Of a stretch of 64,000 nt of DNA, positions 13,581-23,816 are shown in pieces. Under the pieces are notes generated by a model. That model had not been told where the DNA came from. It worked only from the letters and a program-made list of their open reading frames with translations, and ran no database searches. Positions within the stretch are counted from its first letter, which is position 1. Every line of letters starts with the position of its first letter. The stretch comes from Alphaproteobacteria bacterium (GTDB lineage Bacteria; Pseudomonadota; Alphaproteobacteria; Bin95): the NCBI GenBank assembly GCA_964291285.2, contig OZ219785.1, positions 736,001 through 800,000 on the forward strand, read 5' to 3'. Position numbers and translations under genes: made by a program.

Positions 13581-15082
13581 TCTTCGCTGTCCTTTTCATG
13601 GTAGCCGGCCAGCCCGTCGTATCCGCCGAGATCGTGATCGCGCACGGCGATGTCGCGCACGCGCGGGTCCCTGGGCAGGTCGATGGGGATCGGCGGCGGC
13701 CTGTCCTGCAGTTCGCGCCGCCGTGTGAGGCTGAGGCGCACGGCATTGGGATGGGGGACGCCGCGTTCGAGGGCCTCGTCGATGGCGGCTTCGAGCTCGG
13801 CGGCGCCGTATTGGTCGAGCAGGCGCAGCAGGGCGGCGACGGTGGCGCCGATATAAGCGCCGCGGGGGGCGGCCTCGGCGATCAGGCGCTCGCTGTTGGG
13901 CGCGGCCTGGAGCAGCCGGCTCTGCCCGCGCAGGCTGCGGGCGTGACGCTTGCGCCTGACCAGCTCCTCAATGTGTTCGGGGTTCTCGATGCGGGCCGCC
14001 TTGTCGAAGCTGCGCGGATGGCGGGCGATGACCTCCATGCCGTCGAGGATGCGCACCTCTTCCAGCGTCGCGGCCACGGTGAGGGTGCGCCGGACATGGG
14101 TATGCGGGACGCTGTAGTCATTGAGGTCGAACCTGGCATAGGGGGTCTTGGCGATCCTGACCTCGACCCTCTCGTCGACGGGGGGACGGTCGTCGGGCAG
14201 CGCCATCAGGGAGCCGCGCTCGCGCTCGAAGGCCTCGCTCACGGTGAGGGAGCGGTCGTCCGGCCAGGGGCGGTCGGCGGCGACGCCCTCGCACCACTCC
14301 CGGGCCTGGGCGTTGAGATCGTCGAGGTCACGCCAGGCGCGGGCGGCGAAGAAGCTGTCGCGCACATAGCGTATGGCCCGCTCGACGCGGCCCTTCTCGT
14401 TGCCTCGGGCGACCGCGACCGGCTTCGGCAGGAAGCGGTAGGCGCCTGCGAAGTCGAGAAGCCGGGGATTGAAGCGGATGGCGTCGCCGCGCCGCTCCAG
14501 CACGACGCTCTTCAGATTGTCGTACCAGAGCTCGCGGGGCACGCCCTGCCAAGCCTCGAAGGCCTCGACATGGCCGCGCAGGAAGTTGTCCATCCCGGCG
14601 TTGAGGTAGAAGCGCAGGAAGAGGCGGCGCGAGTGGCCGAGCACCATCACGAAGGCCATCAGCGGGCGCTCCGCACGCCCGATCCTCACCTTGCCGAAGT
14701 GGGCCCAGTCGACCTGGGCCTGCTCGCCGGGCAGGGCCTTGAGGCGCAGATAGGCCTCGGCCACCGGCCGCGGACGCTCGGGCGCGATCATGCGCCGGAA
14801 GTGGCTCTCGCACCCCCGGTAACCGCGCTCGACCGCCATCCGGTAGAGCCGGCTGGAGGGCAACTTCGGCCAGACCGCCAGGGTCTGGCGGACGAAGGGC
14901 AGGAACGGATCGATCATCGAAGATCTGCGCCGCTTCTCAGGCGTGGGCGCCCCGGCGGCCGCCACCGCGCGCTCGACCGTGCCGTGGTGGACGCCGAGCT
15001 GGCGCGCGATCGTGCCGATCCGCCACTTCTCGGCAAAATACAGCCGCAGGATCTCGGCCCGGGTCTGCTGGTCGATCGCCAT
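13577..15082 (-). CDS. istA: IS21 DDE transposase IstA
   Basis: N-terminal HTH, PGEQAQVDWAHFG, WYDNLKS, EKGRVER; start MAIDQQ at 15082 after GGGAG. Confidence 0.95.
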   Translation of the reverse strand: MAIDQQTRAEILRLYFAEKWRIGTIARQLGVHHGTVERAVAAAGAPTPEKRRRSSMIDPFLPFVRQTLAVWPKLPSSRLYRMAVERGYRGCESHFRRMIAPERPRPVAEAYLRLKALPGEQAQVDWAHFGKVRIGRAERPLMAFVMVLGHSRRLFLRFYLNAGMDNFLRGHVEAFEAWQGVPRELWYDNLKSVVLERRGDAIRFNPRLLDFAGAYRFLPKPVAVARGNEKGRVERAIRYVRDSFFAARAWRDLDDLNAQAREWCEGVAADRPWPDDRSLTVSEAFERERGSLMALPDDRPPVDERVEVRIAKTPYARFDLNDYSVPHTHVRRTLTVAATLEEVRILDGMEVIARHPRSFDKAARIENPEHIEELVRRKRHARSLRGQSRLLQAAPNSERLIAEAAPRGAYIGATVAALLRLLDQYGAAELEAAIDEALERGVPHPNAVRLSLTRRRELQDRPPPIPIDLPRDPRVRDIAVRDHDLGGYDGLAGYHEKDSEE

Positions 15083-15083
15083 C

Positions 15084-15518
15084 TCACTCCCTTCGCGCCG
15101 GGCGCAGGCCCGGATAGACCGCCCGGGCGCAGAACCGCCCGCAGTGATCGCAGCGGAACACTCCGGCGGGACGGTCGGGTCCGAAGGGCCTCCTTCCCGA
15201 GCGCCCCGCCGGCATGCCCGCCACAACAGGACGGCGCGGTGAACGGGTCAAAGGGTGATGCGTCACTTTCTGCGCACGGCGCCCCTCCTCAGGCGCACGG
15301 ACGCGACGGCGCTCGCGGTAGCGCCGCTGGCGTTCGGCATGCTTGTGACGGCCCCGCCGGCTGTTCTGGTAGCGACGCCCGGCAAGGCGCAGCGAGCGCC
15401 GCCGCGCCCGGCCGCTGCACGGACGCGAGCAGTAGATGTTGCCGTGGTCGCACCGCCGGCACAGCACAACCTGGCGATGGCACGAAGCGCAGGTGAACAG
15501 GCGGGCGGCGTTCCTCAT
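15084..15518 (-). CDS. Cys-rich, Arg-rich putative zinc-binding protein upstream of istA
   Basis: CASC..CRRC..YC..PC plus a C-terminal CDHCGRFC; stop lies 1 nt before the istA start. Confidence 0.6.
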   Translation of the reverse strand: MRNAARLFTCASCHRQVVLCRRCDHGNIYCSRPCSGRARRRSLRLAGRRYQNSRRGRHKHAERQRRYRERRRVRAPEEGRRAQKVTHHPLTRSPRRPVVAGMPAGRSGRRPFGPDRPAGVFRCDHCGRFCARAVYPGLRPARRE

Positions 15519-15899
15519 CGCAAAGACCGATGAGAACGGGGTGGACCCACGCCCGAACGCCTACGATACTGCGCATACGGGCCGTGCCTTGCATGGCTCG
15601 GGGGGTGCGGCGCCGGTCGTTGCCACCTAGCAAACGGGGCCGGCGCCGCATCGTTCTCAGCAGCCCCAGTCTACCCCCTCGCGCAGCCCGGCGACCCCCG
15701 CCGACAGCGCCAGGACACCCTCCCCTCGGCAGGCGAAAATATCAACGCGACGGGGGCCGGCGACTCCAGTCGGGCTACGCCCTCCTTCCGTCCCAGGCCC
15801 CCGTCACAAACACCGCCGCACCACAATCACTGCGATCATCACGCCCCGCAAAAACGCGCAACGCCAGCAAATAAGCGCCTTTTACGACCGTCACCTACA

Positions 15900-16851
15900 G
15901 GAGGACGTCGCCGGGACGCTGGAGGTCATTCCGCGCCAGTGGAAGGTGATCCAGACCGTGCGCGAGAAGTTCACCTGCCGGGACTGCGAGAAGATCAGCC
16001 AGCCGCCGGCGCCGTTCCACCCGACGCCGCGCGGCTGGGCGGGCCCCAACCTGCTGGCCATGATCCTGTTCGAGAAGTATGGGACGCACCAGCCTCTGAA
16101 CCGCCAGCGCGACCGCTATGCGCGCGAGGGCGTCGATCTCAGCCTGTCGACCCTGGCCGACCAGGTCGGCGCCTGCACGGTGGCGCTGAGGCCGCTGCAC
16201 GACCTGATCGCAGACCATGTGCTGGCGGCCGAACGCCTGCATGGCGACGACACCCCGGTGCCGGTGCTGGCCAGGGGCAAGACCGACAAGGGCCGGGCCT
16301 GGGTCTATGTCCGTGACGATAGGCCGTTCGGCGGGCCGGACCCGCCCGCGGCTCTGTTCCGCTACTCGCGGAACCGGTCCGGCGACCATCCGGTCGAGCA
16401 TCTTCGCGACTTCGCCGGCATCCTCCAGGCCGACAGTTTCGCCGGCTACAACCGCCTCTACGCGGCCGGGCGATTGCCCGGACCTGTCACCGGGATCCCC
16501 TGTTGAGCACACGGGCGCCGCAAATTTTTCGAGCTTGCCGATATTGCGGCCAGCAAGGGGCGCGGCAGGAACGCGCCGCCGATCTCGCCGCTGGCGATGG
16601 AGGCGGTGAAGCGGATCGACGTGCTGTTCGGCATCGAGCGCTCCATCAAGGGCGAGACCGCTGCGCGGCGCCACGCCGTCCGCCAGGAACTGAGCGCGCC
16701 GGTGGTGGCCGAACTCAAGATCTGGATGAAGGCCGAACGCGCAAAGCTCTCCCGCCATGCCCCCGTCGCCAAGGCCATGGACTACATGCTCAAACGATGG
16801 GACCGCTTCGCCCGGTTCCTCGACGACGGACGCATTTGCCTGTCAAACAAT
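15900..16851 (+). pseudogene. tnpC: IS66 TnpC middle fragment with nonsense mutation
   Basis: LHGDDTPVPVL, LQAD; conserved CWAH reads C*AH (TGA at 16504-16506); ends DDGRICLSNN at the IS1595 insertion. Confidence 0.88.
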
Positions 16852-16886
16852 GGGGGGTATATACATTAGTGACCACCCTCCCGGCG

Positions 16887-17039
16887 TCAGTCGGACTTCC
16901 GCTTGAGATATTCCCACTCGTCCTCGCGCTTGTTCGGCGTCGCCAGAACCGACCGTAGGATGCTCTCCGGCGTGTCTGGAATCGGCTCCGGCAGCGGGTA
17001 TTTCACGGGACGGCCACGCTTCGGCTTCTCGTCCGTCAT
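16887..17039 (-). CDS. 50-aa small protein at the end of the IS1595 element
   Basis: MTDEKPKRGRPVKYPLPEPIPDTPESILRSVLATPNKREDEWEYLKRKSD; strong GGAGG RBS; AT-hook-like KRGRP. Confidence 0.6.
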   Translation of the reverse strand: MTDEKPKRGRPVKYPLPEPIPDTPESILRSVLATPNKREDEWEYLKRKSD

Positions 17040-17053
17040 GGCTTCCTCCGGGG

Positions 17054-17962
17054 TTAGATGACGCGGGCCGCGTGATGGAAGACCTCGTTCGTGAAGTCGT
17101 CCCAACGCTCGCCGTCTTGGGCAATGTCGTCCAGCAGATAGACCTTGACGCTCCCGATAGCGGCGAGGCGCGTTCTCATCTCCGGCGTGATGACGCCTGC
17201 CACTAGGAAATTCACGCAGCCCGGCGGCGTCTCGGCAAAGCTCTTCGACATGGCGCCGAGCCGTTCCAGAGCGCCGGCCGGGTCGCGGCCGCCCTTCACC
17301 TCGATTGTCGCGATGAGTTGGTCATCCCGATGGAAGTCTATATCCGGCTCTGACCCGAAGCTCATGATCGTGTTGCGAGGCAGCAAATACCGCCCATGTT
17401 CCGGGCAGTCCGGCGGAATGACGCCGTTCGCCTTCAGCCATCCCACGAGACGATTCTTGACAAGCTCCTCTGCCACATCGCCTATCCGGTTGCGGAACAT
17501 TCCATCGAGCGAAATGCCCATTGTCGCAACGATGTTCCGGTAGCCGTTTTCCAGCGTCCAAGCCGACGAGCCTTCGATGATCGACGAGATCATGGTGTTG
17601 TAGAGGCAGGCGACCTTCCGGGCCGTTGGCTCTCGAACCGGCGTCTTGCGGCTCCCGTCTTCCCAGCTATCGACAGGGGATGCAGCCTGCCCGACACGCT
17701 TGCGGGACAGGAGGGCCATGCCGCGATAGTAGAGCGAGGTCGTGGGGTGCGCGCGGAGCAAGTCGGGATGCGCAAACACCACCTTCGGCTCAATGCCAAG
17801 CGATTGCACATGGTCCCATGCCGCGCTGCTGATCATCAGTTTGTCGAGAGGGTCGAAGTCGAGCGCCGCCGCGAATTCGTCAATGAGACGGCGCTGCGCC
17901 CGATCCTTCCGCTGGCTCAGAATGTCGGCGAAAAGGCGGGAGCGGAGAACATCATCAGTCAT
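17054..17962 (-). CDS. Type II restriction endonuclease, PD-(D/E)xK, XcyI-like family
   Basis: FGSEPDI..IATIEVKGG.DPAGALERLG..KSF catalytic region; start MTDDVL overlaps the MTase stop. Confidence 0.75.
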   Translation of the reverse strand: MTDDVLRSRLFADILSQRKDRAQRRLIDEFAAALDFDPLDKLMISSAAWDHVQSLGIEPKVVFAHPDLLRAHPTTSLYYRGMALLSRKRVGQAASPVDSWEDGSRKTPVREPTARKVACLYNTMISSIIEGSSAWTLENGYRNIVATMGISLDGMFRNRIGDVAEELVKNRLVGWLKANGVIPPDCPEHGRYLLPRNTIMSFGSEPDIDFHRDDQLIATIEVKGGRDPAGALERLGAMSKSFAETPPGCVNFLVAGVITPEMRTRLAAIGSVKVYLLDDIAQDGERWDDFTNEVFHHAARVI

Positions 17963-19346
17963 CGGCGCGCACCCATCGATAGACGCATTTCCGCAGTTCG
18001 CGCCGGCCAAATCGGGCCATCTGCTGGCTCGAATTGCCCTTGCCGCGGGGCAGCTTCCATATGTGCTCGCACCGGAAGCCAGCGCCTTCGGCGAAGTCGG
18101 CCAGAATGAAGTCCACCGGCAACTCCTCGCCGTGATACTGCACATTGTCGTTGACCATGATGACGGACCCGCCGGGCCGGACGATGCGCCCGAGCTCGGC
18201 TATGACCACCGCCATTTCGAAGAAATACTGCTCGATCAGCGTCAAGACATTCCGGTTGCTCAACTCGTCCTGCCGACCGCGCAGGATGCCCAGGACCTCA
18301 TGAACCGCGCTTTGGTCCCGATAGAGGCGTATCGCACAGTCCAAGGTCTCCCGGTGTTCCCCGTAGATCGTATTGAGCGTTTCCGTCTTCGCCTTGTTCT
18401 CAACGGTGGCGGAGAGCATTCGCTGGCGCAGGGAGGAAAATCCCGCCTGATCGAACCCCATCCATGCGAGCTCCAGCGCATAGGTCCGCGTGTAGTCGTA
18501 TCGGTTCGCGTAAGGCGGCGAGGTCACCACCATGTCGAATTCGCCGTCCGGGATGTTCTTGAGCAACTCCAGGCATGAGCCGGTCAAGAGTGTCGGCCTG
18601 CCGCCACCGAACTGCTTCTTGAGCGCCGGGATGTCGGCGGCGATCTCGTTGAGCCGCCGCTCCAGGGCCGCGCTGAAACCGGCGATAGGCCCTATGTCGA
18701 ACGATGACCGCAACTGCCTCGGAGCGCGGCTGTCCCATCGCAGATATTGGCCATCCTTGCGCGTGTAGCTGGCTTCCTCCAGGACCGACATGCAGGCCAA
18801 GTCCAACAGCGCGTGCAGCCCGCCGTTATCCATGTGCGAGAGGAACCGCCGCGCCGCCGCTATCTCCTTCTCCGTCTCGCTCGCAAAGGCTCCCTCGGTT
18901 ATGCGCACATGCGGGAACGCAAACTTGGGCGCCGCGCGCCGCGCTTTCACCGCCCGGAGAAGCGCCGCAGATTGCTTGTCAAAGTCGGACTGCGTAAGGC
19001 CGTTTGCCGCTTCGGCGATAGCGGTCCCGGCCAGAACACCGACCGGCATGATCTCGATTCCTGTTGCCGGAATCCCTTGCCCGGCGGCAACCAGGGGCGT
19101 TGTGCAAATCCCGGCGAAAGGATCAAGAACTGCCGTTGGACGCTCCTGCTGGATCAGGTCGGCGACAAGCTCGCACGAGAAGCCTTCCTTGTATTTCATC
19201 CAGCGAAGGCCCGGTGCCTGGCGGTTCCCCTGATAGGAGACGACACGGCGGCAGTAGATTTCGTTCGTGCTCAGCAGCGGGGCAAAGCGGTCCGAGAGGG
19301 CTTGCCGTTCCTCCACTGGTCCATCGTGCGGGGATATGGCCGTCAT
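17955..19346 (-). CDS. Amino (N4-C/N6-A) DNA methyltransferase, alpha motif order
   Basis: W.KYKEGFS, VLDPFAGICTT (motif I), VVTSPPY (motif IV); ATGA overlap with the transposase stop. Confidence 0.88.
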   Translation of the reverse strand: MTAISPHDGPVEERQALSDRFAPLLSTNEIYCRRVVSYQGNRQAPGLRWMKYKEGFSCELVADLIQQERPTAVLDPFAGICTTPLVAAGQGIPATGIEIMPVGVLAGTAIAEAANGLTQSDFDKQSAALLRAVKARRAAPKFAFPHVRITEGAFASETEKEIAAARRFLSHMDNGGLHALLDLACMSVLEEASYTRKDGQYLRWDSRAPRQLRSSFDIGPIAGFSAALERRLNEIAADIPALKKQFGGGRPTLLTGSCLELLKNIPDGEFDMVVTSPPYANRYDYTRTYALELAWMGFDQAGFSSLRQRMLSATVENKAKTETLNTIYGEHRETLDCAIRLYRDQSAVHEVLGILRGRQDELSNRNVLTLIEQYFFEMAVVIAELGRIVRPGGSVIMVNDNVQYHGEELPVDFILADFAEGAGFRCEHIWKLPRGKGNSSQQMARFGRRELRKCVYRWVRADD

Positions 19347-20335
19347 GCGGCGGGCCGTGCGCCAGAGGACAGGCCATTGTCGGCAATCAGGTCGCGATAG
19401 CGCAGCCGCTTCCCGACCATGCCGATGACGACGGAGCGCATCATGTCCAGCGTGTCGCGGGGCCGGATGTTGTGACGGCCCGAGAGCTCCCTGACATATC
19501 GATCGAGGTGCTTTTCCGAGAACTTGTGGAAGGTCCCCTGATAGCCCCGCTTCAGCATGGACCAGAAGGACTCCAAGCCGTTCGTGTGCGCCATCTCCCA
19601 CACATACTTGCCGACCGAGTGATTGACCGCCTCGTGGTCGAACTCCGGCATACCCTTGTAGGCTTTCGCCTCGTCCGTATAGAGCGTCGCGCCCGGGGCG
19701 GCATGGTGGCGGACGAAGCCCTGTAGGGCCGTCGCGTCGGTCTGCGAAATGCGCTGCGCCGCGACCCGGCCGCTCTCCCGATCCTTGACGCCTACCACGG
19801 CGGCTTTGCTGACCGTCCCGCGCCCGGCGCCCGCTTCCGCCAGCTCCTTCCGCTTCGCGTTCGACATGTTCTTGCGCTTGCCACCGATGTAGGTCTCGTC
19901 CGCCTCCACCGGCCCGGAGAACATGTTGCCGCCGTTCTCGTTCCACGACTCCCGAATGCGGTGCGCCAGATGCCACGCTGTCTTCTGCGTTACGCCCAAA
20001 TCCCGGTGCAGCTTCATGCTGGCCTGCCCCTTGAGCCCGGTGTTCAGCAGGTAGAACGCCAGAACCCAGATTTGCAGGTCCAGCTTGCTGCTCTGCATCG
20101 GCGTCCCGGTGCGGACCGAAAGCCACTTCCGGCAGTCCTTGCAGCGGTGCGTCATGGTCTTGTGCGCGACCGGATGCGTGATCCGGTGACTGCCGCAATG
20201 CGGGCAAACCGGACCTTCCGGCCAGCGGACGCTCTCGATCCATGCGCGGGCCGTGTCGTCGTCCGGGAACATCCGCGTGATCTCGACCAGCGAGAGACCC
20301 TTGCGGTAGTGCTTTCCGGGAGCGTTGCGAGCCAT
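19343..20335 (-). CDS. IS1595-family DDE transposase
   Basis: Zn ribbon CPHC..CKDC, HTH (QKTAW..HRIR), VEADETY, LYTDE, HTNGLESFWS.LKR. Confidence 0.93.
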   Translation of the reverse strand: MARNAPGKHYRKGLSLVEITRMFPDDDTARAWIESVRWPEGPVCPHCGSHRITHPVAHKTMTHRCKDCRKWLSVRTGTPMQSSKLDLQIWVLAFYLLNTGLKGQASMKLHRDLGVTQKTAWHLAHRIRESWNENGGNMFSGPVEADETYIGGKRKNMSNAKRKELAEAGAGRGTVSKAAVVGVKDRESGRVAAQRISQTDATALQGFVRHHAAPGATLYTDEAKAYKGMPEFDHEAVNHSVGKYVWEMAHTNGLESFWSMLKRGYQGTFHKFSEKHLDRYVRELSGRHNIRPRDTLDMMRSVVIGMVGKRLRYRDLIADNGLSSGARPAA

Positions 20336-20727
20336 TTCCTGCCTCCGTCTTTATGCAAGTATAGTGACACAATCCGCCTGCCGTGGCAACAGAAAAAGTC
20401 ACTGTTCTTCGTTTTTCTGCCCCCGTTGTCCTCGCTGGAACGGCGGTCTTTCACCTCGCCATCCGGCCCGATCAGCCGCGCCTCAAACTGCTCGCCTATC
20501 GCCATGCCTTCCTCGAATTCCACTTCCAGCGGGGTGTTGCGCCCCGTCTTGGGATGCACAATCTCTGCCGGGCCGTGGAGGTGGTAATGGATGTTCTGGT
20601 CGCCGTGGATGACCGTTACGCCCCCGCCAGCTTTGATGACGAGCTTGCCCGCTTTCTTCCTGCCGAACATGCGCCTCAACCACTTCCCGCTGGCGCGCGC
20701 CGCGCCGATGATCCCGAACCACTCCAT
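20152..20727 (-). CDS. Hypothetical passenger ORF inside the IS1595 element (3' part overlaps the transposase; doubtful)
   Basis: ORF track; first ~110 aa look protein-like. Confidence 0.3.
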   Translation of the reverse strand: MEWFGIIGAARASGKWLRRMFGRKKAGKLVIKAGGGVTVIHGDQNIHYHLHGPAEIVHPKTGRNTPLEVEFEEGMAIGEQFEARLIGPDGEVKDRRSSEDNGGRKTKNSDFFCCHGRRIVSLYLHKDGGRKWLATLPESTTARVSRWSRSRGCSRTTTRPAHGSRASAGRKVRFARIAAVTGSRIRSRTRP

Positions 20728-20801
20728 CCGGTCATCATGGCCGGAGTCCTCCCGGAATCCGAGTCCGTTTGGTCATTTTGGTATATAAATCCCCAAACAA
20801 T

Positions 20802-21049
20802 GCCGCTGGAAGGGCGCTCGGAGGTATTGCCCTCGGCCCAAGTCGTGGCTGTTCGCAGGCTCCGATCGCGGCGGCAGGCGCGCCGCCGCCATGTACACCC
20901 TCATCGGCACCGCAAAGCTCAACAATGTCGATCCCCAGGCCTGGCTCGCCGACGTGCTCAAGCGCATTGCCGGCACCCCGCAGAACCGCCTCGGCGAACT
21001 TCTTCCCTGGAACTGGCAGGACACCCGGCGGCACGACCGGGCCGCATAA
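20802..21049 (+). pseudogene. tnpC: IS66 TnpC C-terminal fragment (frameshifted)
   Basis: SWLFAGSDRGGRRAAAMYTLIGTAKLNNVDPQAWLADVL...ELLPWNW, TAA at 21047-21049. Confidence 0.85.
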
Positions 21050-21582
21050 CCAAAGACACCGCCCGACGGTCTCCGATCAACTCCACGCCCGCCACAAACT
21101 CAGACCTCGATACACTGCGGTCTTCGGCGGATGCTTACGATCCAGGAGGCCTGCATCAAGGGCGTATCCACCCGCTCGGTCGACGACCCGGTGCAGGCGA
21201 TGGGCATGTCGGGCATCTCCAGGAGCCGGGTGTCGCGGCTGTGCGGGGAGATCGACGGCAAGATCCGCGACTTCCTCGACCGGCCGCTGGAGGGCGACTG
21301 GCCGTATCTGTGGCTGGATGCGACCTGTGTGAAGATGCGCGAGGCCGGGCGCATCGTCCCGGTCGCGGTCACCATCGCGGTGGCGGTCAACGATCGGGGC
21401 CGGCGCGAGGTGCTCGGCATGGCGGTCGGCGCGTCCGAGGCCGAGACCTTCCGGACCGACTTCCTGCGCTCGCTCGCCCGCCGCGGCCTGCGCGGCGTCA
21501 AGCTGGTGATCTCCGACGACCACAAGGGCCTGAAGGCCGCCGCGACCCGCATCCTCGGCGCCACATGGCAGAGATGCCGCGT

Positions 21583-23110
21583 GGGGCTGTTGAAAAAGCT
21601 CGATGTCTGTGACTCACTGCATCGATATCTTGTGTTCGAGGAAAGAGAGCCACCAGATGTTGGATCACAAGAGCCGCGATCAGTTGGAACTTTTCATCAC
21701 GGGCTCGCTTCGGCAGCTGGTGCCCGAGGATCATGTTCTGGCGCGCGTAGACCGGGTTTTGGACCTTGGCTGGCTGCGCGAGGAAGTGGCGGAGTGCTAT
21801 TGCGCGGACAACGGCCGGCCGGGCATCGACCCGGAAGTTGCGGTGCGGCTGATGTTGGCCGGTCTGCTGCTCGGGATCGTTCACGACCGCAGGCTGCTGC
21901 GGGAGGCGCAGGTCAACCTCGCGATCCGCTGGTTCATTGGCTACGGTCTGCACGAGCGTCTTCCCGACCATTCGAGCCTGACCCGGATCCGCCAGCGCTG
22001 GGGCGAGGAACGCTTCCGGTCGATCTTCCGGCGTATGGTGACGGCCTGTCTGGAAGCGAAGATCGCCATGGCCGATGTCGTGCATGTCGACGCGTCACTG
22101 ATCCGCGCCGATGTCAGCTGGGAGAGCCTGGTCGAGCGTCATGCTGACGAGGTGATGGCAGAGAACCGTGGCGGGGAGGAGATCGAGGCGGAGAAGAAGG
22201 GCCGGCAGAGCGGCAAGTACAAGAAGGTGAGCCGCACCGATCCGGATGCGAGCATGGCGACCACGTCGCGCAAGCAGCGTCTTGAGCCTTGCTACAAGCA
22301 GCACACGGCGGTCGACGACATGAGAGGCGTGGTTCTCGATGTCGCCGTGACGACCGGCGAGGTGAACGAGGGCGATACGATCGAGGCCCGGCTCGACGAA
22401 GTTCGCAGGATCTCGGGTCGCGAGATCGGAACGGTGACGGCCGATGCCGGCTACGCCTACGCCAAGGTCTATGCCGGTCTTGAGCGCCGCAGCATCGACC
22501 CGGTGATCCCGGCCAAGAAGGAACCGATCAAGACCCGCGTCCCCTTGCGCCGCTTCCGTTACGATGCCAGGCACGACATTCTCAAATGCCCACGCGGGAA
22601 GATCCTGCGTCCGCAACGGCGCGTAAAGCATGGCCGTTTCTTCTACTCCAGGTCCGAGGACTGCAAGCGCTGCCCGCTCAAGGGTGACTGCCTGTCGAAA
22701 GGACGCGTCAACAAGGCGGTCGTCGTCGGCGACCATTATCCGGCGCTGCTTTGTGCACGGCGCCGACGCATACGCTGGAGCGACGAGGATCGGCGGCTGT
22801 ATCGGCGTCACCGCTGGCGCTCGGAGGGCTTCCACGGCGAGGCCAAGACCTGGCACGGTTTGAGCCGAGCCGTCCGCCGCGGCCTCGACAACATGAAGAT
22901 CCAAGCCTACCTGACAGCGGCGGCGATCAACCTCAAGCGGCTCGCGGTCGCCCTTCTTGCCGCCCTGTCGGCCATCTGGACGGCTCGGACGGTCGCTTCG
23001 GGCCTCTTACGGGCCCGTCACGCCTGACCCGTCCCCAATGTGCCGGCGACCGCCGAAGCAACGGGATGAGGCGAGAACCGCGCGACAAGACTGAGTTCTT
23101 CAACAGCCCC
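21583..23110 (+). mobile_element. IS1182-family element
   Basis: IRs GGGGCTGTTGAA / TTCAACAGCCCC; TSD CGCGT (or CCGCGTG if the IR is one base shorter). Confidence 0.9.
21657..23027 (+). CDS. IS1182-family transposase (apparently intact)
   Basis: LVPEDH.L, GRPGIDP, PDHSSL, HVDASLI.A, S.TDPDA, ADAGY, R.RSEG.HGE.K. Confidence 0.9.
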   Translation: MLDHKSRDQLELFITGSLRQLVPEDHVLARVDRVLDLGWLREEVAECYCADNGRPGIDPEVAVRLMLAGLLLGIVHDRRLLREAQVNLAIRWFIGYGLHERLPDHSSLTRIRQRWGEERFRSIFRRMVTACLEAKIAMADVVHVDASLIRADVSWESLVERHADEVMAENRGGEEIEAEKKGRQSGKYKKVSRTDPDASMATTSRKQRLEPCYKQHTAVDDMRGVVLDVAVTTGEVNEGDTIEARLDEVRRISGREIGTVTADAGYAYAKVYAGLERRSIDPVIPAKKEPIKTRVPLRRFRYDARHDILKCPRGKILRPQRRVKHGRFFYSRSEDCKRCPLKGDCLSKGRVNKAVVVGDHYPALLCARRRRIRWSDEDRRLYRRHRWRSEGFHGEAKTWHGLSRAVRRGLDNMKIQAYLTAAAINLKRLAVALLAALSAIWTARTVASGLLRARHA

Positions 23111-23816
23111 CGCGTGCACTTCATGCGCAACCTGCTCGCCCATGCCGGCAAGCAGGGCCGGCGCGTCGTCTCCGCCTTCGTCACCACCGCCTTCGCCCAG
23201 GAGGATGCAGACGGCGCCTCCGCCCAGTGGCGCCAGGTCGCCGACCAGCTCAGGCCCAGGGCGCCGAAGCTCGCCGCCATCATGGACGAGGCCGAGCACG
23301 ACGGTCTCGCCTGCATGACCTTCCCGGCCGCGCATCGCCCAAAGCTGCACTCGACAAACCCGCTCGAACGGCTCCACGGCGAGATCGAGCGGCGCACCAG
23401 CACCAACACCGTCGGCATCTTCCTCAACGAGGACGCCATCACCCGGCTGATCGGTGCCATCCTGCTCGAGCAGAACGATGAATGGGCCGTCCAGAGAGCC
23501 AGATACGTGACGCTGGAATCGATCGCTCCCGTGAGCGACAATGCAACCGTCAAGCTGCCCGCCGTGGCAGCCTGAGCCTAACGGCCCTTCCCGCCGGATA
23601 CCGCGACGGGCGCCAGGCTCTTACACCACGGCTCGGGACACGATCTAACCGGTCATCGTCCTGTCCTCTCCAGTCCATGTGAGTCCTCTCCTGGGTGGTC
23701 GATTGGGGGGTGCAGTTCGACCATCCCCGACGCCCGTTTTTTCCGCTTCGATGGCCGCACATGCGTCCGCGCCACCCTGATCGCGGGCGGGGTCCATCGA
23801 AGACGAGGAGACGGGA

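What the first reader, a model, noticed from the sequence alone, without database searches (positions are those of the whole stretch)
16852..20793. IS1595 element that mobilises a translationally coupled restriction-modification system
Seen: IRs and a perfect 8-bp TSD (CAAACAAT) bound a 3942-bp unit. Transposase, alpha-class SPPY MTase and PD-(D/E)xK endonuclease are chained by overlapping stop/start codons (ATGA at 19343-19346; 8-bp overlap at 17955-17962). No controller gene is visible. Known: IS1595 members can carry passengers (tIS), and type II R-M acts as both defence and addiction module. Inference: a minimal, recently moved defence transposon whose R-M expression is tied to the transposase transcript, with the slot after the transposase possibly being a variable cargo site.
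Basis: partly seen in the sequence, partly recalled or inferred. Interest (0 to 1): 0.8.

Follow-up and report, generated by a model that had tools for sequence, protein, structure and literature searches.

The report
Insertion sequence carrying a restriction-modification pair
This is a real 3.9-kb jumping gene of the IS1595 family that carries a DNA methylase and its matching restriction nuclease behind its transposase; close relatives carry other genes in the same slot, so it is a clear new example of a known kind of element.

Summary
Window 16852-20793 is a 3942-bp IS1595-family element with imperfect terminal inverted repeats (17 of 24 positions match) and a perfect 8-bp target duplication (CAAACAAT). 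It sits inside an IS66 transposase gene, and three paralogous IS66 copies in the same genome are uninterrupted at that octamer.

On the minus strand it encodes:
- an intact transposase;
- a 463-aa N4/N6 DNA methyltransferase (motif I before SPPY);
- a 302-aa XcyI-family PD-ExK endonuclease.

These are chained by ATGA and ATGACTGA stop/start overlaps, and neither cargo gene has its own Shine-Dalgarno sequence.

The variable-slot idea is supported:
- A same-genus genome has the same backbone (transposase 95.8% aa identical) but a C5-methylase plus GIY-YIG nuclease in the slot.
- Another keeps the same R-M pair behind a 60%-identical transposase.
- 9 of 20 delimited relatives carry a DNA methyltransferase, and 20 of 20 have at least 471 bp of extra DNA after the transposase.

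Not shown: "recently moved", R-M activity, specificity, and co-transcription. Transporter ISs of this family are already in print, and this scan has noted similar elements in other genomes, so this is a new member of a known kind.

The parts
16844..16851 (.). Target-site duplication, copy 1 (CAAACAAT)
   Evidence: Paralogous IS66 copies have one CAAATAAT at this site.
16852..16875 (-). Distal terminal inverted repeat (element right end, GGGGGGTATATACATTAGTGACCA)
   Evidence: It matches the other end at 17 of 24 positions. The same end is 93% identical in G006.
16887..17039 (-). Conserved 50-aa micro-ORF (RGRP...PIPDTPE motif) with its own GGAGGAA ribosome site. It is a backbone gene, not cargo.
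   Evidence: It was found next to the distal repeat in relatives that carry unrelated cargo. 18 database homologues, all unnamed. pN/pS is 0.22-0.60 in 7 pairs. No Pfam or NCBIfam family.
17054..17962 (-). Restriction endonuclease, XcyI family, 302 aa, PD...ExK
   Evidence: Pfam RE_XcyI 1.2e-13. 867 homologues, and those that carry a name are called XcyI family restriction endonuclease. P206, D207, E221 and K223 are invariant in 27 sequences.
17955..19346 (-). DNA methyltransferase, N4/N6 type, 463 aa, motif I then target-recognition region then SPPY (alpha order)
   Evidence: Pfam N6_N4_Mtase 1.8e-6. Partial matches to motif I and motif IV of beta-class enzymes in swapped order. At least 7937 homologues, and those that carry a name are called site-specific DNA-methyltransferase, DNA modification methylase or, for one, hypothetical protein.
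19343..20335 (-). IS1595-family transposase, 330 aa, full length, own GGAGG ribosome site
   Evidence: Pfam and NCBIfam matches. D146, D221 and E255 are invariant in 15 relatives.
20386..20727 (-). Upstream ORF of uncertain status (the frame stays open to 20152, overlapping the transposase start)
   Evidence: Found only here and in G006 (68.6% aa identity over 86 aa). Differences by codon position are 13/10/21. No family.
20770..20793 (-). Transposase-proximal terminal inverted repeat (GGGATTTATATACCAAAATGACCA on the minus strand)
   Evidence: 97% identical over 61 nt in G006.
20794..20801 (.). Target-site duplication, copy 2 (CAAACAAT)
15946..16851 (+). 5' part of the interrupted IS66-family transposase gene (the target)
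   Evidence: Pfam DDE_Tnp_IS66 in two frames.
20794..21049 (+). 3' part of the interrupted IS66-family transposase gene
   Evidence: Pfam DDE_Tnp_IS66_C 6.1e-19; alignment to paralogues.

Best explanation
This is a transporter insertion sequence (tIS) of the IS1595 family. Its ends look like those of the ISNwi1 group (group name recalled, not from a call).

Shown here:
- The transposase recognised the two GGG..TATATAC ends and inserted the whole 3942-bp unit into an IS66 transposase gene, duplicating 8 bp.
- Between the transposase stop codon and a conserved 50-aa micro-ORF lies a cargo slot. Here it holds a type II restriction-modification pair: an alpha-order N4/N6 methyltransferase and an XcyI-family PD-ExK endonuclease.
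- The slot's content differs between close relatives, so cargo is replaced while the backbone (ends, transposase, micro-ORF) stays.

Inferred:
- The methylase and nuclease genes have no ribosome-binding site of their own and overlap the stop codon of the gene before them (ATGA, ATGACTGA). They are therefore most likely translated by ribosomes that have just finished the upstream gene.
- That would tie their output to transposase translation and keep nuclease output no higher than methylase output, without a controller protein.
- The pair would protect the host from unmodified DNA and penalise loss of the element, which would favour retention and spread of the IS.
For: Insertion as one unit:
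- 8-bp duplication, imperfect repeats, and an uninterrupted site in three paralogous IS66 copies.
- Contigs of three runs bridge the junctions.

Gene identities.

The trio travels together:
- G012 has transposase-M-R inside GGGGATTATGTAG repeats with duplication TTCATGAA. M is 85.7% and R 85.1% aa identical to ours, and synonymous divergence is similar in all three genes (pS 0.58, 0.55, 0.46).
- 4 of 4 metagenome loci with a full-length R relative have M directly upstream and an IS1595 transposase before it. The transposase is whole in 1 locus; in the other 3 only partial matches were found.

Variable slot:
- G006 shares the backbone at 90-97% nt identity (transposase 95.8% aa, pS 0.24) but carries PF00145 (C5 methylase) plus GIY-YIG.
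- 9 of 20 delimited relatives carry a Pfam-supported DNA methyltransferase, and 7 of those 20 also have a recognisable nuclease.
- On a 19-row transposase tree the methylase label needs 6 changes. Starred branches force at least 3, and 219 of 500 shuffles were as low.

Coupling architecture:
- The transposase stop overlaps the next start as ATGA or GTGA in 7 of 9 junctions examined.
- The M stop overlaps the R start by 8 nt (ATGACTGA) in ours, G012 and L081; L082 has ATGAATGA.
- There is no GGAG or AGGA before the M or R start. The transposase and the micro-ORF each have GGAGG.

The family is mobile in this genome: a 2574-bp relative is present in 3 identical copies with 3 different 8-bp duplications.
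Against: - This element is single-copy here, and no second insertion site of this exact element was seen, so its present mobility is unproven.
- No RNA data exist. The promoter and terminator scans found 0 and 0 sites, so a single transcript is not shown and an internal promoter is not excluded.
- The methyltransferase's Pfam score barely passes (28.5 against 26.7 bits), and the motif order rests on short partial matches.
- Specificity is unknown. CCCGGG is no more depleted in the genome (observed/expected 0.56) than other palindromes (0.30-0.50 for the twelve lowest).
- The similar synonymous divergence of transposase, M and R against G012 means that pair may simply have co-diverged. Only the G006 comparison and the tree argue for cargo replacement.
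Confidence: 0.85

Rival explanations
1. It is a fossil insertion. The unit transposed once but no longer moves, and the R-M pair now behaves as an ordinary chromosomal system whose link to the transposase has no present function.
For: It is single-copy in the genome. It lies in a nest of decayed ISs: the IS66 target is itself frameshifted, and the neighbouring IS256-type gene is split by another IS. For three of four metagenome relatives only partial transposase matches were found, which I read as decay.
Against: The transposase is full length, with all family domains and invariant acidic residues. Both repeats and the duplication are intact. Sister elements in the same genome are present in 3 and 4 near-identical copies.
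Confidence: 0.25
2. The cargo serves the element and not the host. The methylase-nuclease pair acts mainly as an addiction module that kills cells that lose the IS, or the methylase times transposition through methylation of the ends. Phage defence would be a side effect.
For: Methylase with or without nuclease cargo recurs in this IS lineage (9 of 20 elements), with several unrelated enzyme families. This fits selection for any R-M as a stabiliser. Tight translational linkage to the transposase is what a selfish unit would favour.
Against: Four different methylase types (alpha-order N4/N6, C5, D12, beta N4/N6) in related backbones cannot all target the same site in the repeats, which argues against methylation-timed transposition. 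11 of 20 relatives carry no recognisable methylase. Nothing here separates addiction from defence.
Confidence: 0.3
3. It is a chance neighbourhood. An R-M pair happens to lie next to an IS1595 transposase, and the repeats and octamer are coincidental.
For: None beyond the repeats being imperfect (17 of 24).
Against: Uninterrupted target site in paralogues. The same ends occur in G006. The same trio lies inside its own repeats and duplication in G012. GGG[GA]ATTATATAC ends with 8-bp duplications occur in relatives from other record sets.
Confidence: 0.03

Closest known systems
Transporter IS (tIS) of the IS1595 family (Siguier, Gagnevin and Chandler 2009)
   Same: An IS1595 transposase with a Zn ribbon, short imperfect terminal repeats, an 8-bp duplication, and passenger genes inside the repeats. 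I saw the concept only as cited passages in PMC3129680 and PMC11891212. PMC2853133 cites the 2009 paper for R-M systems and solitary M genes flanked by IS elements. The group name ISNwi1+ and its consensus ends are recalled from ISfinder and come from no call.
   Different: The 2009 paper itself is not held, so I cannot say whether an XcyI-type pair, the stop/start chaining or the 50-aa micro-ORF are described there.
XcyI / Cfr9I restriction-modification systems (CCCGGG)
   Same: The nuclease passes the Pfam RE_XcyI gathering score, and homologues carry that name. M precedes R on one strand. Translational control of Cfr9I is in print: Lubys et al. 1994, of which I saw only the title in reference lists.
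   Different: The match to the family model is distant (51 bits). Specificity was not tested. The prototypes' gene layout is recalled, not read (PMC334515 is not held). As far as the passages I read show, the prototype systems are not described inside an IS.
Transposon-like R-M units with inverted repeats and an 8-bp duplication (Xanthomonas oryzae; Furuta, Abe and Kobayashi 2010, PMC2853133)
   Same: R-M genes bounded by imperfect inverted repeats, an 8-bp duplication, and an empty site in a comparison genome (passages read).
   Different: Those units have 65-bp repeats and no transposase of their own; the authors could not say what moved them. The element here is autonomous and carries its own IS1595 transposase.
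Sister elements in the same genome and genus
   Same: Same family, same end motif, same 8-bp duplication, and the transposase stop overlapping the methylase start. Examples are the 2574-bp element in 3 copies (N6_N4 methylase plus an HNH ORF) and the roughly 2.4-kb element in 4 copies (methylase-HNH fusion).
   Different: Other cargo families. The 4-copy element carries its cargo convergent to the transposase and therefore uncoupled.

Membership tests
IS1595 family insertion sequence | DDE transposase of the ISXO2/IS1595 type with an N-terminal zinc ribbon | tested here: met
   PF12762 1.4e-37 (profile positions 2-152 of 153), PF12760 3.2e-11, NF033547 7e-53 (1-215 of 215).
IS1595 family insertion sequence | Terminal inverted repeats and an 8-bp target duplication | tested here: met
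   17 of 24 matching positions at the ends. CAAACAAT on both sides. Uninterrupted paralogous target.
IS1595 family insertion sequence | Ends of the ISNwi1 group type (consensus recalled from ISfinder, not from a call) | tested here: inconclusive
   The ends read GGGGGGTATAT and GGGATTTATAT. Relatives read GGG[GA]ATTATATAC. No ISfinder comparison could be run.
Transporter IS (tIS) | Genes unrelated to transposition lie inside the repeats and move with the element | tested here: met
   M and R lie between the transposase and the distal repeat. The whole unit is what interrupts IS66.
Type II restriction-modification system | Separate methyltransferase with AdoMet-binding motif I and catalytic (S/D)PP(Y/F) motif IV | tested here: met
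   DPFAG region at aa 55-102 and SPPY at aa 253-282, matched to known methylases. Pfam N6_N4_Mtase is just above its cut-off.
Type II restriction-modification system | Separate endonuclease with a PD-(D/E)xK core | tested here: met
   P206-D207...E221-V-K223 are invariant in 27 homologues of 54-85% identity.
Type II restriction-modification system | Site-specific methylation and cleavage | not testable with these tools
   No methylome or enzyme data. The CCCGGG count in the genome is uninformative.
XcyI family endonuclease (Pfam PF09571) | Score above the family's gathering cut-off | tested here: met
   51.4 bits against a cut-off of 25. All 120 listed homologues carry PF09571.
XcyI family endonuclease (Pfam PF09571) | Recognition of CCCGGG | not testable with these tools
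   Distant from the model, and no REBASE copy is on hand.
C-protein-controlled R-M system | A small helix-turn-helix controller gene beside the nuclease gene | tested here: not met
   No HTH family in any ORF of the element. The 50-aa ORF occurs with non-R-M cargo too, so it is not an R-M controller.

The most novel reading that the evidence does not exclude
This IS lineage works as a small cassette platform. The slot is bounded on one side by the transposase stop codon and on the other by the ribosome site of a conserved 50-aa proline-rich micro-protein (RGRP...PIPDTPE).

Methylase-nuclease modules enter and leave the slot by recombination at the shared ATGACG stop/start microhomology. Each new module is then automatically coupled to transposase translation.

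The micro-protein would be an undescribed transposition accessory factor, perhaps binding the AT-rich TTATATA core of the repeats through its AT-hook-like RGRP.
Probability: 0.2. Interest if true: 0.55.

Novelty: new member of a known kind. Interest (0 to 1): 0.35.

Why it matters
It shows concretely one way that restriction-modification genes move: inside a 4-kb autonomous insertion sequence, with expression probably slaved to the transposase through overlapping stop and start codons.

Within one genus the same backbone holds unrelated R-M pairs, and within one genome three related elements carry three different methylase-nuclease sets. That makes the lineage a tractable model for three questions:
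- how defence or addiction genes hitch-hike on the smallest transposons;
- how a controller-free R-M pair is kept safe;
- what the conserved micro-ORF does.

It does not change what is known about the class. Transporter ISs of this family are in print, and this scan has noted similar elements in other genomes.

Tried and rejected
- **Transposase with micro-protein complex** (complex prediction): no verdict (score 0.00, mark 0.32). This says nothing either way.
- **RNA evidence:** no RNA holder listed, so expression and transcript structure are untested.
- **Promoter and terminator scan:** 0 promoter-like and 0 terminator-like sites, against shuffle means of 1.0 and 3.7. Uninformative.
- **CCCGGG avoidance as a clue to specificity:** observed/expected 0.56, with 3049 sites in the genome and 1 in the element. 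This is unremarkable among palindromic hexamers.
- **Solved structures:** none for the nuclease (best E 0.1, an unrelated repressor) and only short motif matches for the methylase.
- **The "empty-site" contig in run X1** (joint 16843 to 20794): it carries 3 other letters and the paralogue's 1-base insertion, so I read it as a paralogous IS66 copy and not an allele lacking the element.
- **"The cargo moved between backbones", from ours against G012:** rejected as proof, because synonymous divergence is similar in transposase, M and R.
- **Generic repeat finder on the region:** its listed output (20 direct-repeat families and 25 of 830 inverted pairs) held only scattered matches and not the terminal repeats. 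The ends were read directly instead.
- **Papers not held:** Siguier 2009, the 2014 FEMS review and Withers 1992.
- **Literature searches** for an IS1595 element with R-M or defence cargo: they returned the tIS concept and Furuta 2010, but no paper describing this element or cargo exchange in this lineage.
- **Scan index look-ups** by place and by sequence: nothing.
- **R in the wider class:** 2 of 401 sampled genomes, own genome included. The second hit (45% identity) was not followed up.


Full report
**1. The observation**

The stretch 16852-20793 is a discrete insertion.
- The octamer CAAACAAT lies directly outside both ends, at 16844-16851 and 20794-20801.
- The ends are imperfect inverted repeats, GGGGGGTATATACATTAGTGACCA and GGGATTTATATACCAAAATGACCA. 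They match at 17 of 24 positions, counted on the printout.
- The flanks are two halves of one IS66-family transposase gene: Pfam DDE_Tnp_IS66 profile positions 174-257 just before the element, and IS66_C just after it.
- In a script I joined the two flanks with one copy of the octamer. The join aligned without a break (400 of 401 columns, one gap) to three other IS66 copies of the same genome at 93%, 88.5% and 88.5% identity. A fourth copy aligned over only 167 bases. The three have a single CAAATAAT at that point. This is the classic signature of transposition with an 8-bp duplication.
- Contigs of three public runs of one study bridge the junctions. One is a 4094-nt contig covering 16806-20899 with no differences. 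These runs may be the source of the assembly, so I count them only as showing that the join is not a scaffolding artefact.

**2. The genes (all on the minus strand)**

- *Transposase (19343-20335, 330 aa).* It matches DDE_Tnp_IS1595 over the whole profile, the IS1595 zinc ribbon, and NCBIfam transpos_IS1595. D146, D221 and E255 are invariant in an alignment of 15 relatives.
- *Methyltransferase (17955-19346, 463 aa).* It passes Pfam N6_N4_Mtase narrowly (28.5 against 26.7 bits). Residues 55-102 match the C-terminal AdoMet-binding motif of beta-class enzymes, and residues 253-282 (SPPY) match their N-terminal catalytic motif. The order is therefore motif I, a roughly 195-residue middle region, then motif IV. 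At least 7937 homologues exist. Of the four listed ones that carry a name, two are called site-specific DNA-methyltransferase or DNA modification methylase and one hypothetical protein.
- *Endonuclease (17054-17962, 302 aa).* It matches Pfam RE_XcyI (1.2e-13, 51 bits against a cut-off of 25). It has 867 homologues, and the few with names are called XcyI family restriction endonuclease. In 27 of them, at 54-85% identity, P206, D207, E221 and K223 never vary. That is a PD...ExK core.

**3.

Two more ORFs lie inside the repeats.
- *A 50-aa ORF at 16887-17039.*
  - It begins 14 nt after the R stop codon and has its own GGAGGAA ribosome site.
  - It is conserved next to the distal repeat in relatives whose cargo is quite different: G006, G010, G003, L046, L050, L052 and others.
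  - It has 18 unnamed database homologues.
  - Differences fall in excess at the third codon position, with pN/pS of 0.22-0.60 in 7 pairs.
  - R8, G9, R10, P11, P17, P19-D22, P24, E25 and P35 are invariant.
  - It is therefore a backbone gene of this IS lineage and not an R-M controller. No Pfam or NCBIfam family matches it.
- *An ORF at 20386-20727, between the proximal repeat and the transposase.* It is shared only with G006 (68.6% aa identity over 86 aa). It shows only a mild third-position excess (13/10/21 differences). I leave its status open.

**4. Relatives and the cargo slot**

A DNA search covered the 37 genomes of the family, own genome included, and 18 had a match. A protein-seeded scan of genome contigs gave 34 loci.

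I delimited 20 distinct elements by their GGG[GA]ATTATATAC-type ends, most of them with perfect 8-bp duplications.
- In all 20, the distal repeat lies at least 471 bp beyond the transposase stop.
- Pfam found a DNA methyltransferase in 9 of the 20. A tenth, L068, has a DPPF-containing 76-aa fragment that I recognise by eye only; Pfam gave no hit.
- 7 of the 20 also have a recognisable nuclease. For G012 this rests on 85% identity to this element's R.

Methylase cargo by element:

| Element | Cargo |
|---|---|
| This element, G012 | Alpha-order N4/N6 methylase + XcyI-family nuclease |
| G006 | C5 methylase + GIY-YIG |
| 3-copy element of this genome | N6_N4 methylase + separate HNH ORF |
| 4-copy element of this genome, L056, L058 | N6_N4 methylase-HNH fusion |
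| L052 | D12 methylase + unknown 242-aa ORF |
| L071 | Decayed methylase fragment |

The remaining elements carry a KilA-N/P63C protein (G010), DUF1508 (L072) or ORFs without a family.

**5. The two most telling comparisons**

- *G006 (same genus).* It has the same ends, upstream ORF, transposase (95.8% aa, pS 0.24) and micro-ORF at 90-97% nt identity. Between the transposase stop and the micro-ORF's ribosome site it has a C5 methylase and a GIY-YIG protein in place of the XcyI-type pair. Homology breaks just after ATGACG on the left and resumes at GGAGGAAGCC on the right. One end of that copy lies at a contig end, so its duplication could not be checked.
- *G012 (same genus).*
  - It has the same M-R pair (85.7% and 85.1% aa) behind a transposase only 60.5% identical.
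  - It lies inside its own repeats (GGGGATTATGTAG) with duplication TTCATGAA, and again has ATGA between the transposase and M.
  - Synonymous divergence is similar in the three genes (0.58, 0.55, 0.46). This pair is therefore compatible with long co-inheritance of the trio, with a faster-evolving transposase. It does not by itself prove transfer between backbones.

Further support:
- Four of four metagenome loci with a full-length R relative (69-72% aa) also have M directly upstream, with an IS1595 transposase before it. The transposase is whole in one locus; in the other three only partial matches were found.
- A sponge-metagenome contig holds M-R with 131 differences over 2377 bases (about 94.5% identity), while most of the transposase stretch fell under the 90% threshold.
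- On a 19-row transposase tree this element groups with G006 (support 100/98) and then L046 (95/98), apart from the other two XcyI-bearing rows. The methylase-cargo label needs 6 changes. Starred branches force at least 3, and 219 of 500 shuffles were as low, so the label is not clustered.
- Cargo has therefore been replaced several times in this lineage.

**6. How it most likely works**

Shown: insertion as a unit; an intact transposase; an intact M and R with conserved catalytic motifs; a slot whose content varies.

Inferred:
- M and R have no GGAG-type ribosome site and overlap the preceding stop codon, whereas the transposase and the micro-ORF each have GGAGG.
- The same (A/G)TGA overlap between the transposase and the next gene is present in 7 of 9 junctions examined. 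L056 and L058 have small gaps instead.
- Overlapping ATGA pairs are the usual substrate for termination-reinitiation coupling (abstract of PMC6728339, seen in the listing).
- So M output would follow transposase translation and R output would follow M. This would give a controller-free way of keeping R at or below M.
- Translational control is in print for the related Cfr9I system (Lubys et al. 1994). I saw only its title in reference lists, and its content is recalled.
- No transcript data are available.

**7. What is not shown**

- *"Recently moved".* The element is single-copy. Its G+C (about 0.59-0.65 per 400-bp window) is below the genome's 0.68, which fits acquisition from elsewhere. Nothing dates the insertion.
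- *Specificity.* It is unknown, and the CCCGGG count is uninformative.
- *Defence against addiction.* Nothing here separates the two.

**8. Comparison with what is known**

- Elements with passenger genes inside IS ends were named transporter ISs on the basis of this very family (Siguier et al. 2009). I saw this only through citing passages in PMC3129680 and PMC11891212.
- Furuta et al. 2010 cite that paper for R-M systems and solitary M genes associated with IS elements. They also describe transposase-less R-M units with inverted repeats and 8-bp duplications in Xanthomonas oryzae (passages read).
- The 2009 paper is not held. I cannot say whether this cargo or the micro-ORF is listed in it.
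- Five literature searches found no paper on this element or on cargo exchange in this lineage.
- This scan has noted IS1595 elements with R-M cargo in at least seven other genomes. Those are unchecked notes on other DNA. I used them as leads only.

**9. Verdict**

This is a real, well-delimited, probably functional IS1595-family transporter IS carrying an XcyI-family type II R-M pair. It is a new member of a known kind.

Its modest extra interest lies in three points:
- the within-genus cargo swap at exact stop/start boundaries;
- three related methylase-carrying elements in one genome;
- the conserved micro-ORF of unknown role.

Noticed in passing
window 13577-23575: An IS nest. It holds an IS21-type transposase (13577-15226, Mu-transpos_C_2 and rve). 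The IS66 gene is both frameshifted (two frames, 15946-16506 and 16597-16869) and interrupted by this element. An IS256-type (Transposase_mut) gene is split into 21131-~21600 and 22751-23575 by a DDE_Tnp_1 IS (21603-23027).
   Followed up: partly
L079 (G000:C3:1207871-1210444) and two identical copies at C1:811248-813821 and C2:1112284-1114857: A 2574-bp sister tIS in 3 identical copies with three different 8-bp duplications. Its transposase (59% aa identical to ours) has a stop that overlaps (GTGA) a beta-class N6_N4 methylase, followed by an HNH ORF. This shows the family is active in this genome.
   Followed up: partly
L080 (G000:C3:2119239-2121671) and three more copies: A roughly 2.4-kb sister tIS in 4 copies with a convergent methylase-HNH fusion gene. 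Two copies on different contigs have exchanged flanking octamers (CATTACTG / AATCCGAA), which suggests recombination between copies. Copies also differ by a 66-bp block of an 11-bp tandem repeat near the distal end. The same flank swapping is seen among L049, L050 and L055.
   Followed up: no
window 16887-17039; alignment A3: The 50-aa micro-protein is proline-rich with an invariant RGRP (AT-hook-like, my reading) and PIPD.PE. G012, L058, L057 and L068 have a different small ORF at the same position, with a loosely similar C-terminal pattern (my reading). It may be one wider family of IS accessory micro-proteins.
   Followed up: partly
window 17960, 19344, 17037 and the matching starts in L045 and L040: Every cargo and micro-ORF start in this element, G006 and G012 reads ATGAC (Met-Thr), and the sequence at both slot boundaries is ATGACG. 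This is a possible microhomology for cassette exchange, or simply a by-product of ATGA overlaps in G+C-rich DNA.
   Followed up: no
loci L056-L072: Transposases 44-59% identical with the same GGG[GA]ATTATATAC ends occur in records titled as several phyla (Acidobacteriota, Rhodothermota, Chloroflexota, Fidelibacterota). One hit at 49% identity lies in a record titled Cenarchaeum sp.; its ends were not found. This suggests wide horizontal spread of the lineage.
   Followed up: no
window 20336-20385 (minus strand): The transposase leader contains AGTGAC...GTCACTATAC, which resembles the GTCACTAATGTATATA of the distal repeat. It may be an internal transposase-binding site over the promoter (my reading, untested).
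   Followed up: no
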